Shown: positions 24,082-25,922 of the stretch, piece after piece
Position numbering within the stretch: position 1 is the stretch's first letter
How the letters are laid out: each line of letters opens with the position of its first letter
Assembly (NCBI RefSeq): GCF_041248615.1
Contig: NZ_CP158426.1
Length of the DNA: 64,000 nt
Source of the DNA: Escherichia coli
Lineage (GTDB): Bacteria > Pseudomonadota > Gammaproteobacteria > Enterobacterales > Enterobacteriaceae
Direction: 5' to 3' (one strand)
Program-made: the position numbers and the translations under genes
The notes under the pieces: generated by a model
The model's database searches: none
Seen by the model: the letters and a program-made list of their open reading frames with translations, nothing else
Told to the model about the DNA's origin: nothing

Positions 24082-25239
24082 TTGAAACGTAGTCTGCTTT
24101 TTTCTGCCGTGCTGTGTGCGGCGTCATTGACCTCCGTCCATGCGGCGCAGCCGATCACTGAACCGGAGTTTGCCTCTGATATTGTCGATCGTTATGCCGA
24201 TCATATTTTTTACGGCAGCGGTGCCACGGGGATGGCGCTGGTAGTTATCGACGGTAACCAGCGCGTCTTTCGCAGTTATGGCGAAACGCGACCTGGTAAT
24301 AACGTTCGCCCGCAGCTGGATTCGGTCATACGTATTGCTTCCCTCACCAAGCTAATGACCAGTGAGATGCTGGTGAAATTGCTCGACCAGGGGACCGTGA
24401 AGTTAAACGATCCGCTAAGTAAATATGCTCCGCCAGGCGCACGCGTACCGACTTACAATGGGACGCCCATTACGCTGGTGAATCTGGCAACCCATACCAG
24501 CGCCCTGCCCCGTGAACAGCCCGGTGGCGCGGCACATCGTCCGGTATTTGTCTGGCCAACGCGCGAGCAACGCTGGAAATACCTTTCTACGGCGAAGCTG
24601 AAAGCCGCGCCAGGCAGTCAGGCGGCGTACTCTAACCTTGCGTTCGACCTGCTGGCAGATGCACTGGCGAATGCGTCCGGCAAGCCTTATACCCAGTTGT
24701 TTGAAGAGCAGATTACCCGTCCATTGGGGATGAAAGACACCACCTACACTCCCTCACCGGATCAGTGCCGCCGTTTAATGGTTGCTGAGCGCGGTGCCAG
24801 TCCGTGCAATAACACGCTGGCGGCAATTGGCAGCGGCGGCGTCTATTCCACGCCTGGCGATATGATGCGCTGGATGCAGCAGTATTTGTCATCCGATTTT
24901 TATCAGCGCAGTAACCAGGCTGATCGCATGCAGACGTTGATTTATCAGCGCGCGCAGTTTACGAAAGTGATTGGCATGGATGTCCCCGGCAAAGCGGATG
25001 CGCTTGGTTTAGGCTGGGTATATATGGCCCCGAAAGAGGGTCGTCCGGGGATTATTCAGAAGACAGGTGGTGGTGGCGGTTTCATTACCTATATGGCGAT
25101 GATCCCGCAGAAGAATATTGGCGCGTTTGTGGTGGTCACTCGTTCGCCGTTGACGCGCTTTAAAAATATGAGCGATGGCATCAATGACCTGGTGACCGAG
25201 CTAAGCGGGAATAAACCGTTGGTTATCCCCGCATCCTGA
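24082..25239 (+). CDS. ampH: Penicillin-binding protein AmpH (class C beta-lactamase-like DD-peptidase)
   Basis: 385-aa ORF with signal peptide and SxxK active-site motif (IASLTKLMT). Confidence 0.95.
   Translation: MKRSLLFSAVLCAASLTSVHAAQPITEPEFASDIVDRYADHIFYGSGATGMALVVIDGNQRVFRSYGETRPGNNVRPQLDSVIRIASLTKLMTSEMLVKLLDQGTVKLNDPLSKYAPPGARVPTYNGTPITLVNLATHTSALPREQPGGAAHRPVFVWPTREQRWKYLSTAKLKAAPGSQAAYSNLAFDLLADALANASGKPYTQLFEEQITRPLGMKDTTYTPSPDQCRRLMVAERGASPCNNTLAAIGSGGVYSTPGDMMRWMQQYLSSDFYQRSNQADRMQTLIYQRAQFTKVIGMDVPGKADALGLGWVYMAPKEGRPGIIQKTGGGGGFITYMAMIPQKNIGAFVVVTRSPLTRFKNMSDGINDLVTELSGNKPLVIPAS

Positions 25240-25922
<683 letters not shown>

What the first reader, a model, noticed from the sequence alone, without database searches (positions are those of the whole stretch)
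25237..25242. ampH and yaiV converge with abutting stop codons
The plus-strand ampH stop (tga, 25237-25239) is directly followed by the minus-strand yaiV stop (tta, 25240-25242), leaving no room for a terminator. Convergent transcripts must overlap, so antisense interference is possible.
Basis: seen in the sequence. Interest (0 to 1): 0.15.

Follow-up and report, generated by a model that had tools for sequence, protein, structure and literature searches.

The report
ampH 3' hairpin embedded in iprA
Two E. coli genes that face each other (ampH and iprA/yaiV) really do end on adjacent stop codons, but this is an old and ordinary compact junction: the stem-loop that most likely ends the ampH message is written into the last 14 codons of iprA and has been kept by selection in about 80 related species.

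Summary
The ampH stop (TGA, 25237-25239, +) directly abuts the iprA/yaiV stop (TAA, 25240-25242, -), and RefSeq annotates it this way, including in K-12. The junction is ancient: in 80 of 80 Enterobacteriaceae species that carry iprA, ampH converges on it, and 70 of the 80 have between a 4-nt overlap and 5 nt of spacer.

"No room for a terminator" holds only for intergenic space. A strong hairpin (25249-25285, + strand, -20.9 kcal/mol, z -5.5) followed by UUUAUUCAUUU starts 9 nt after the ampH stop, inside iprA's last 14 codons. Its 8-bp core pairs in 99.5% of 616 alignment cells, with repeated AU-to-GC compensatory switches at paired synonymous sites. Nearly all departures are G·U in the ampH-sense RNA but A·C in the iprA sense. 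The stem codons are the five most synonymously constrained of 38 tested. iprA-like paralogs that are not next to ampH lose the hairpin.

The best reading is a terminator or 3'-end stem-loop for ampH embedded in iprA. No 3'-end mapping confirms it. The transcripts should overlap by about 45-50 nt. Antisense regulation is untested.

Two other convergent pairs in this window (proC-adrA, ddlA-yaiZ) show the same design, so this is an ordinary kind of feature.

The parts
24082..25239 (+). ampH CDS (385 aa, TTG start, TGA stop at 25237-25239): D-alanyl-D-alanine carboxypeptidase/endopeptidase AmpH
25240..25863 (-). iprA (= yaiV) CDS, 207 aa by RefSeq. The older 222-aa yaiV model starts at 25908. Stop TAA at 25240-25242. 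C-terminal winged-HTH domain (PF15977).
25237..25242 (.). The two abutting stop codons (tga | tta), with 0 nt between them
25249..25285 (+). Hairpin A in the ampH-sense RNA. The extended stem is 25249-25264 / 25269-25285. The conserved 8-bp core is 25252-25259 paired with 25275-25282 (GGCAAAC...GTTTGCC at 25253-25281). It lies inside iprA codons for K-G-K-L-V-A-I-N-R-L-P.
   Evidence: -20.9 kcal/mol, z -5.5; 99.5% paired, covariation, 0/500 shuffles; strand asymmetry, independent switches; synonymous constraint; codon resampling 4-5/5000; lost in paralogs; unique in the window
25282..25292 (+). U-rich tail (TTTATTCATTT) following hairpin A in the ampH sense. The predicted ampH mRNA 3' end is about 25286-25292, equivalent to K-12 394301-394307 on the minus strand.
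   Evidence: A tail with at least 4 T in 8 nt is present in 57 of 81 sequences and absent in the Enterobacter/Lelliottia/Leclercia clade.
25205..25232 (-). Hairpin B (GCGGGGAUAACCAACGGUUUAUUCCCGC in the iprA sense), just past the iprA stop and inside the last ampH codons. It has a weak U tail (UUAGCU). It is a weak, lineage-specific candidate stop or pause for iprA.
   Evidence: z -1.6; kept in Escherichia and some Citrobacter only

Best explanation
This is a compact, ancient convergent gene junction. The signal that forms the ampH 3' end has no intergenic space, so it is encoded inside the neighbour. After RNA polymerase passes the ampH stop codon, the nascent ampH RNA folds into hairpin A (25249-25285). 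In Escherichia this is followed by UUUAUUCAUUU, which gives it the form of an intrinsic terminator and predicts an ampH mRNA end near 25286-25292. The ampH mRNA would then carry a 3'UTR of about 45-50 nt that is perfectly antisense to the last ~15 codons of iprA.

Shown here: the hairpin is a selected RNA structure, selection acts on the ampH-sense strand, and it is tied to adjacency with ampH. Inferred: it terminates transcription and/or fixes and protects the ampH 3' end.

iprA has no conserved terminator of its own. Its few transcripts probably run into ampH antisense and end at the weak hairpin B, by Rho, or by collision. That part is inference only.
For: (1) The hairpin is strong and non-random: -20.9 kcal/mol, z -5.5, 0 of 200 shuffles as stable. 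The palindrome is unique in the window.

(2) In 81 sequences (77 distinct), the 8-bp core pairs in 99.5% of 616 cells. Pair 13-43 is AU in 42 and GC in 32. Pair 19-37 is AU in 56, GC in 18 and GU in 3. One CG-to-UA change also occurs. 0 of 500 shuffles reach the observed values.

(3) Parsimony on a tree built from flanking sequence gives at least 6 independent switches at pair 19-37 and at least 3 at pair 13-43.

(4) The strands differ. Departures in the core are 20 G·U and 3 mismatches in the ampH sense, against 2 G·U and 21 mismatches in the iprA sense. The synonymous CTG-to-TTG change, which would give A·C in the ampH sense, is never seen. The non-synonymous R-to-H change, which gives G·U in the ampH sense, arose about 5 times. 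The hairpin is more stable in the ampH sense in 62 of 81 sequences (-19.1 vs -16.7 kcal/mol).

(5) Synonymous constraint: the five stem codons have the five lowest third-position entropies (0.10-1.08 bits) among 38 near-invariant residues with four-fold or greater degeneracy; the others range 1.10-1.99 bits.

(6) The structure is not forced by the protein. Only 4-5 of 5000 synonymous recodings of the last 17 codons fold as well.

(7) Natural controls: four autotransporter + iprA-like paralog loci that are not next to ampH keep the G-K-L...L-P residues but have 1-3 core mismatches and fold at only -3.8 to -8.8 kcal/mol. In Cronobacter, a 34-nt spacer carries its own hairpin and hairpin A is degraded to -10.1 kcal/mol.

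(8) ampH always has a stable stem-loop within about 50 nt of its stop. In Salmonella it is a spacer hairpin followed by AUUUUUGUUA, oriented for ampH. In Kosakonia cowanii, which lacks iprA, it is an intergenic hairpin.

(9) K-12 RNA-seq fits. The antisense-over-yaiV read density is 8-14% of the ampH density. A 50-nt 3'UTR alone would give about 7.5%, which implies read-through of roughly 1-7% at most (my arithmetic on PMC7373196 Table S1c).

(10) The same design is seen at proC-adrA and ddlA-yaiZ.
Against: No mapped RNA 3' end supports it. The curated Term-seq list of Adams et al. 2021 (three conditions) has no entry for ampH or yaiV. TERMITe and SMRT-Cappable-seq supplements have none either. 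The SEnd-seq and Dar & Sorek tables were not available.

The U-tract is interrupted (UUUAUUCAUUU). It is missing altogether (CGGCUCAU) in about 24 of 81 sequences that still keep the hairpin, so the conserved role cannot be canonical intrinsic termination everywhere.

Salmonella keeps hairpin A despite having a canonical spacer terminator upstream of it.

The stem starts only 9-12 nt after the stop codon, so a terminating ribosome may interfere with folding.

The simple terminator scan found no excess of sites in the region (3 found vs 3.2 expected) and caught only the inner stem.

The RNA-seq argument uses per-gene counts with no positional information.
Confidence: 0.6

Rival explanations
1. 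Hairpin A is not a terminator. It is a barrier to 3'-exonucleases. ampH transcription would end further downstream, by Rho or by collision, and the RNA would then be trimmed back to the stem-loop, which sets the mature 3' end and the stability of ampH mRNA.
For: The hairpin is conserved in the Enterobacter, Lelliottia and Leclercia clade without any U-tract. There the stem is lengthened to CCG-GGGCAAAC...GUUUGCCC-CGG, at -26.8 kcal/mol. The Kosakonia cowanii and Cronobacter 3' hairpins also lack good U-tracts. The strand asymmetry and covariation fit this reading as well as they fit termination.
Against: In Escherichia, Citrobacter, Salmonella and Kluyvera the tail is U-rich (57 of 81 sequences). 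Low antisense coverage over yaiV argues against much transcription beyond the hairpin, although trimming could produce the same picture. Adams et al. list no Rho-dependent region downstream of ampH; their only ampH entry is internal, at K-12 395316.
Confidence: 0.2
2. The overlap is a regulatory device of the excludon, cis-antisense or RNA polymerase collision type. ampH transcription, or the ampH 3'UTR, would repress iprA, or the reverse, through head-on collisions at a hairpin-induced pause or through RNase III cleavage of the duplex of about 50 bp. The conserved hairpin would serve that coupling.
For: The tail-to-tail arrangement is conserved in 80 of 80 species. The overlap covers the iprA stop codon. 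In K-12, ampH is expressed about 50-fold above yaiV, and antisense reads exceed sense reads over yaiV. p19 captures dsRNA duplexes within ampH. A published model places hairpins in overlap regions as pause sites that set up collisions (bioRxiv 10.1101/2022.10.23.513370).
Against: p19-captured dsRNA over yaiV is 0.09-4.6 RPM, close to background. yaiV sense and antisense reads are not raised in rnc mutants. The pair is not in the held ExcludonFinder text, which lists 165 convergent excludons. Selection acts on one strand only, and the tail in the iprA sense is U-poor. Conserved gene order by itself is weak evidence in Enterobacteriaceae.
Confidence: 0.1
3. There is no functional element. The palindrome would be a by-product of the conserved IprA C-terminal residues, or a DNA-level protein-binding site, and both transcripts would simply read through each other.
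For: The residues G-K-L and R-L-P are conserved across the family, paralogs included, and they fix several of the stem bases. No mapped 3' end exists.
Against: Synonymous recodings almost never fold as well (4-5 of 5000). The stem codons are the 5 most constrained of 38 at third positions. Compensatory changes occur at synonymous sites in several lineages. Paralogs with the same residues lose the stem. A DNA site would not show a G·U versus A·C asymmetry between strands.
Confidence: 0.05

Closest known systems
Intrinsic (Rho-independent) terminators embedded in the transcription unit of a convergent neighbour ('overlapping terminators' of convergent excludons; ExcludonFinder, NAR 2025, PMC12288877)
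   Same: A stem-loop plus U-rich tail lies just after the stop of one gene and inside the 3' end of the convergent gene, which forces the transcripts to overlap. The same architecture is seen here at proC-adrA and ddlA-yaiZ.
   Different: The spacing here is the extreme case (0 nt), so the whole element is coding sequence on the other strand. The U-tract is interrupted. ampH-iprA is not among the listed E. coli excludons. No 3' end has been mapped.
Overlapping bidirectional terminators between convergent genes, e.g. ynaJ-uspE (Ju et al. 2019, as summarised in bioRxiv 10.1101/2022.10.23.513370)
   Same: A convergent pair with a hairpin-forming sequence in the overlap region. Termination there may not need a canonical U-tract or Rho.
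   Different: Selection is on the ampH-sense RNA only (20 G·U vs 21 mismatches). The iprA-sense tail is U-poor. iprA is barely expressed in K-12, so collisions would be rare.
Protective 3' stem-loops that define the mature ends of Rho-terminated mRNAs (Dar & Sorek 2018, NAR, PMC6061677; recalled from knowledge, its tables are not held)
   Same: A stable stem-loop without a good U-tract close to the stop codon, as in the Enterobacter clade, Kosakonia cowanii and Cronobacter versions.
   Different: The E. coli version does carry a U-rich tail. No Rho-dependent region is reported downstream of ampH.
Tail-to-tail (convergent) overlapping or abutting genes, including 4-nt TTAA-type stop overlaps
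   Same: 15 of 80 species have exactly a 4-nt overlap of the two stops and 14 have a gap of 0. Another pair with a 3-nt gap (pptA-yddH) occurs in the same genome.
   Different: None for the junction itself. This is the known class.

Membership tests
Intrinsic (Rho-independent) terminator | Stable G+C-containing stem-loop shortly downstream of the stop codon, on the sense RNA | tested here: met
   Hairpin at 25249-25285, -20.9 kcal/mol, z -5.5. It starts 9 nt after the TGA. It is conserved with covariation in the ampH sense.
Intrinsic (Rho-independent) terminator | U-rich tract immediately 3' of the stem | tested here: inconclusive
   The window has UUUAUUCAUUU (5 U in the first 8 nt after the stem), but the tract is interrupted. 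57 of 81 sequences have at least 4 U in 8. The Enterobacter clade has CGGCUCAU instead.
Intrinsic (Rho-independent) terminator | RNA 3' end mapped at the U-tract in vivo | tested here: inconclusive
   No ampH or yaiV entry in the curated Term-seq 3' ends of Adams 2021, in TERMITe or in SMRT-Cappable-seq. The absence may reflect low expression.
Intrinsic (Rho-independent) terminator | Factor-independent termination in vitro | not testable with these tools
   Needs a transcription assay on a template covering about 25150-25400.
Conserved cis-acting RNA structure inside a coding region | Base-pair covariation and excess synonymous constraint beyond what the protein requires | tested here: met
   99.5% paired, 51 double-change cells, 0/500 shuffles; at least 9 independent switches; 5 lowest of 38 entropies; 4-5 of 5000 recodings.
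Excludon (convergent) | Overlapping transcripts of oppositely oriented neighbours detected in RNA-seq | tested here: inconclusive
   Per-gene antisense reads over yaiV are 4.2-7.8 RPM and over ampH 1.6-5.5 RPM (PMC7373196 Table S1c). There is no positional resolution. The pair is not in the held ExcludonFinder text.
Excludon (convergent) | Reciprocal effect of one gene's expression on the other | not testable with these tools
   Needs promoter perturbation experiments.
Bidirectional terminator of a convergent pair | The hairpin works for both directions (U-rich on both sides, or 3' ends of both transcripts at the element) | tested here: not met
   The iprA-sense tail is UUCAGAGUAUUAA, with mean T-score 1.02 against 2.05 for the ampH sense. 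On the iprA strand the hairpin lies upstream of the iprA stop codon. The iprA-sense stem accumulates A·C mismatches.
REP / known Rfam element | Match to a described repeat or RNA family | tested here: not met
   No Rfam hit at E<=1 in 23700-26000. The palindrome occurs once in the window.

The most novel reading that the evidence does not exclude
The conserved hairpin and the zero-spacer junction could form a dedicated cis-antisense switch. Under this reading, transcription of the cell-wall enzyme gene ampH, through its ~50-nt 3'UTR that covers the iprA stop codon, would set the level of the peroxide-resistance inhibitor IprA by RNase III cleavage, non-stop decay or polymerase collision. That would link envelope state to oxidative-stress tolerance across Enterobacteriaceae.
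Probability: 0.1. Interest if true: 0.5.

Novelty: new member of a known kind. Interest (0 to 1): 0.25.

Why it matters
The abutting stop codons are already in the standard annotation and are unremarkable by themselves. What this analysis adds is a clean, well-controlled example of one stretch of DNA serving two purposes. On one strand it encodes the conserved C-terminus of a regulator. On the other it encodes a selected RNA stem-loop for the convergent gene.

The evidence comes from covariation, a G·U asymmetry between the strands, synonymous constraint, and natural paralog controls. The example shows how terminators survive when intergenic space shrinks to zero. It warns that synonymous changes at the iprA 3' end are not neutral. 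It also gives a precise, testable prediction for the ampH 3' end. It does not open a new class of mechanism.

Tried and rejected
- **Generic terminator scan.** It found no enrichment (3 sites vs 3.2 expected) and saw only the inner stem, because its loop limit is 8 nt.
- **Hairpin B as an iprA terminator.** z is only -1.6 and it is not conserved outside Escherichia and some Citrobacter. I kept it only as a weak candidate.
- **Experimental 3' ends.** Adams 2021 has none for either gene. TERMITe and SMRT-Cappable-seq have none. Supplements for Dar & Sorek 2018, Conway 2014 and ExcludonFinder are not held as text. Ju 2019, Lybecker 2014 and Herman 2016 are not held at all.
- **Rfam.** No family matched.
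- **Coding by-product and DNA palindrome.** Both rejected.
- **Rho termination of iprA read-through.** The only support is a C>G skew (+ strand GC skew +0.18 at 24800-25249). No Rho region antisense to ampH is listed, so this remains inference.
- **Classical terminator discriminant score.** A mental estimate of a d'Aubenton-Carafa-type score for hairpin A came out borderline, so I did not use it as evidence.

Full report
**Observation**

The window is E. coli chromosome and is 100% identical over 2 kb to NZ_OW967178. The ampH ORF (24082-25239, +) ends in TGA at 25237-25239. The next base, 25240, starts the reverse-strand stop (tta, i.e. TAA) of the ORF at 25240-25908. NCBIfam identifies the two products as AmpH (NF007943, 701 bits) and IprA (NF008810, 457 bits). 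IprA is the current name of YaiV, and its C-terminal domain is PF15977, a winged HTH.

RefSeq annotates the two CDSs as directly abutting in this strain and in K-12 W3110 (iprA 393730-394353, ampH 394354-395511). The coordinates and the observation are therefore exact, and they are already part of the public annotation. The RefSeq start for iprA gives 207 aa (25863).

**Is it unusual?**

Not as a bare feature. I read the annotation of 150 kb of this genome and found 18 convergent pairs. Their stop-to-stop gaps are 0, 3, 16, 23, 39, 43, 55, 55, 57, 59, 62, 77, 100, 108, 124, 127, 142 and 174 nt. pptA-yddH has 3 nt, proC-adrA 16 nt and ddlA-yaiZ 23 nt.

The tightness is conserved, however. An IprA profile retrieved 80 loci from 80 GTDB species of Enterobacteriaceae. 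In all 80, ampH converges on iprA. The gaps are -4 (a TTAA-type overlap of the stops, 15 species), 0 (14), 1 (13), 2 (16), 3 (5), 4 (1), 5 (6), 13-17 (6), 39-44 (3: two Salmonella and Buttiauxella) and 157 (1). The junction is ancestral to the family, not a quirk of E. coli.

**What sits at the junction**

On the + strand (ampH sense), a hairpin starts 9 nt after the TGA: GAAGGCAAACGGUUGAUAGCGACCAGUUUGCCUUU, at 25249-25285. Its energy is -20.9 kcal/mol, with z = -5.5 and 0 of 200 shuffles as stable. It is followed by AUUCAUUU. The whole element lies in the iprA codons for K-G-K-L-V-A-I-N-R-L-P, and 9 nt remain before the iprA stop. The palindrome GGCAAAC-N15-GUUUGCC occurs once in the window, against 0 expected. 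Rfam has no match.

**Evidence that the hairpin is selected, and on which strand**

1. *Pairing and covariation.* The last 20 iprA codons align without gaps in all loci (A2; 81 sequences, 77 distinct). The 8-bp core (alignment columns 13-20 with 36-43; window 25252-25259 with 25275-25282) forms standard pairs in 99.5% of 616 cells. Three of its pairs join third codon positions. They switch together: AAA/CCU to (AAG or CGG)/CCC (AU 42, GC 32), AAA/CGU to AAG/CGC (AU 56, GC 18, GU 3), and GGC/UUG to GGU/UUA once. 0 of 500 column shuffles reach the observed pairing or covariation score.
2. *Independent events.* Parsimony on a neighbour-joining tree built from flanking sequence needs at least 6 independent switches at pair 19-37 and at least 3 at pair 13-43.
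3. *Strand asymmetry.* Departures from Watson-Crick pairing in the core are 20 G·U and 3 mismatches when read in the ampH sense. In the iprA sense they are 2 G·U and 21 mismatches. At pair 20-36, the synonymous CTG-to-TTG change would give A·C in the ampH sense and is never seen. The non-synonymous Arg-to-His change gives G·U in the ampH sense and arose about five times. The hairpin is more stable in the ampH sense in 62 of 81 sequences, with means of -19.1 and -16.7 kcal/mol.
4. *Synonymous constraint.* Among 38 near-invariant IprA residues with four-fold or greater codon degeneracy, third-position entropy is 1.10-1.99 bits for the 33 outside the stem. For the five in the stem it is 0.17, 0.77, 0.89, 0.10 and 1.08 bits, the five lowest values.
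5. *Not forced by the protein.* Recoding the last 17 codons with synonymous codons gives a mean energy of -7.8 to -8.6 kcal/mol. Only 4-5 of 5000 recodings reach -20.9.
6. *Natural controls.* Four autotransporter + iprA-like paralog loci in Citrobacter and in metagenomes are not adjacent to ampH. They keep the G-K-L...L-P residues but have 1-3 core mismatches and fold at only -3.8 to -8.8 kcal/mol. In Cronobacter, a 34-nt spacer carries its own strong hairpin, and hairpin A has decayed to -10.1 kcal/mol through an Arg-to-Lys change.

Together these results exclude a coding by-product and a DNA-level palindrome. They tie the structure to the ampH transcript.

**What the hairpin does**

ampH has a stable stem-loop within about 50 nt of its stop in every lineage I examined.

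| Lineage | Position of the stem-loop | Tail |
|---|---|---|
| Species with 17 nt or less of spacer | Inside iprA (hairpin A) | U-rich, except in the Enterobacter clade |
| Salmonella | In the 43-44-nt spacer, oriented for ampH | AUUUUUGUUA |
| Buttiauxella | In the 39-nt spacer | U-rich on both sides |
| Cronobacter | In the 34-nt spacer | Short (GUUUCAGUAG) |
| Kosakonia cowanii (lacks iprA and ehaB; ampH is followed by hemB) | Intergenic | No good U-tract |

In Escherichia, Citrobacter, Kluyvera and others, the tail after hairpin A is U-rich (at least 4 U in 8 nt in 57 of 81 sequences). That gives the element the form of an intrinsic terminator. In the Enterobacter, Lelliottia and Leclercia clade the tail is CGGCUCAU, but the stem is kept and even lengthened. 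The function common to the whole family is therefore best described as forming or protecting the ampH 3' end. Canonical termination is plausible in E. coli but not shown.

**Experimental data**

The data I could reach are thin.

- The curated Term-seq 3' ends of Adams et al. 2021 contain no ampH or yaiV entry. Their only ampH entry is a Rho-dependent region inside the 5' part of ampH, at K-12 395316.
- TERMITe and SMRT-Cappable-seq supplements have nothing for either gene.
- Huang et al. 2020 (PMC7373196, Table S1c) give K-12 RNA-seq values for WT, rnc-14 and rnc-38. ampH is 76.9 / 99.5 / 90.0 RPM sense and 2.5 / 1.6 / 5.5 RPM antisense. yaiV is 1.8 / 0.9 / 1.4 RPM sense and 5.5 / 7.8 / 4.2 RPM antisense.

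By my arithmetic, the antisense density over yaiV is 8-14% of the ampH density. A 50-nt 3'UTR alone would give about 7.5%, so read-through beyond the hairpin would be roughly 1-7% at most. This is consistent with the model but has no positional resolution.

p19-captured dsRNA is 168 and 197 RPM over ampH (samples E and S) but only 0.09-4.6 RPM over yaiV across all six samples. There is thus no sign of abundant duplex at the overlap under those conditions, in which iprA is nearly silent.

It is right that the stops abut. It is right that the transcripts must overlap: the predicted overlap is at least about 45-50 nt and covers the iprA stop codon. It is wrong that a terminator cannot exist, because one can be embedded in the neighbour's coding sequence.

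This arrangement is common. In this window the proC terminator (GCCGGACGU...ACGUCCGGC followed by UUUCUUUGCUUU, -27.9 kcal/mol) lies almost wholly in the last codons of adrA, and the ddlA-yaiZ hairpin overlaps yaiZ. ExcludonFinder reports TransTermHP terminators overlapping the neighbour in 146 of 165 convergent excludons (PMC12288877). ampH-iprA is not in its held text. Work from the Liu laboratory describes hairpin-containing overlapping terminators at convergent pairs (bioRxiv 10.1101/2022.10.23.513370).

Antisense interference remains possible and untested.

**How iprA ends**

This is unknown. Hairpin B (25205-25232 on the - strand, inside the ampH codons for S-G-N-K-P-L-V-I-P-A) is weak (z -1.6), has a poor U tail, and is conserved only in Escherichia and some Citrobacter. 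The read-through RNA would be C-rich and G-poor (+ strand GC skew +0.18 at 24800-25249), which would favour Rho. No Rho-dependent region is listed there, so this is inference.

**Novelty and score**

The abutting stops are already known from annotation. The embedded, covarying ampH 3' hairpin is, as far as the searched literature shows, not described. It is a new member of a known kind: terminators or 3' stem-loops embedded in a convergent neighbour. A specialist would find it a tidy example rather than a surprise. Interest is 0.25.

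Noticed in passing
window 15533-15596 (proC stop 15535 / adrA CDS from 15552) and 20541-20577 (ddlA / yaiZ): Two more tight convergent junctions, with gaps of 16 and 23 nt. 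The proC terminator-like hairpin (15544-15584, followed by UUUCUUUGCUUU, -27.9 kcal/mol, z -3.4) lies almost wholly inside the last codons of adrA. The ddlA-yaiZ hairpin (20547-20577) is flanked by an A-run on one side and a U-run on the other, and it overlaps the yaiZ 3' end.
   Followed up: partly
window 24082-24084: ampH is annotated with a TTG start codon (ccaccgTTGAAACGTAGT), which is a rare initiator.
   Followed up: partly
window ~24277 (= K-12 395316, minus strand): Adams et al. 2021 (supplementary file 2) list a Rho-dependent termination region inside the 5' part of ampH, about 195 nt into the gene. This suggests premature termination of ampH transcription.
   Followed up: no
window ~24381-24402 and ~24613-24634 (= K-12 395191-395212, 394959-394980): Huang et al. 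2020 (Table S3) list RNase III-type 21-22-nt duplexes captured by p19 inside the ampH body, and 168-197 RPM of dsRNA reads for ampH. An antisense transcript therefore covers ampH. Its origin (iprA read-through or an internal antisense promoter) is unknown.
   Followed up: no
window 25240-28897; L085 (Kosakonia cowanii): iprA is AT-rich (GC 0.37-0.42, against 0.52-0.60 in ampH) and sits behind the autotransporter gene ehaB. ehaB is intact here but is split by IS3 in K-12, where the fragments are named yaiT and yaiU. Kosakonia cowanii lacks both genes, and ampH is followed directly by hemB. The ehaB-iprA pair looks like an inserted module.
   Followed up: partly
L088-L092 (Citrobacter farmeri, C. 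arsenatis, metagenome contigs): A paralogous 'autotransporter + iprA-like regulator' module exists elsewhere in some Citrobacter genomes. It is followed by a LacI-type regulator or other genes, not by ampH. I used it here as a control. The pairing of an autotransporter with an IprA-family regulator appears to be a recurring unit.
   Followed up: partly
protein P0070 (ENA metagenome contig, 4908 nt): A 259-aa predicted protein joins IprA residues 1-126 in frame to AmpH residues ~254-385. This implies an inversion across the junction or an assembly chimera. It is a single record.
   Followed up: no
L025, L063 (Salmonella), L082 (Buttiauxella), L084 (Cronobacter): In these lineages a spacer of 34-44 nt carrying a strong GC hairpin has been inserted exactly between the two stops. 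In Salmonella it is U-rich only on the ampH side, and in Buttiauxella on both sides. Salmonella diarizonae still keeps hairpin A behind the spacer hairpin. In S. arizonae hairpin A has a core mismatch and iprA matches only from residue 34, so it may be decaying.
   Followed up: partly
L076 (CACSKA010000001.1): A record titled 'Chryseobacterium sp. 18061' carries an Enterobacteriaceae iprA-ampH locus nearly identical to 'Citrobacter sp. 18056' (L075). The assembly is probably mislabelled or contaminated.
   Followed up: no
L010 (Citrobacter amalonaticus S646): This is the only locus with a 157-nt gap. AmpH ends early with a different C-terminus (...ELSQNRF*), and a remnant of the usual ampH 3' end still abuts the iprA stop. 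This indicates a local rearrangement or insertion.
   Followed up: no
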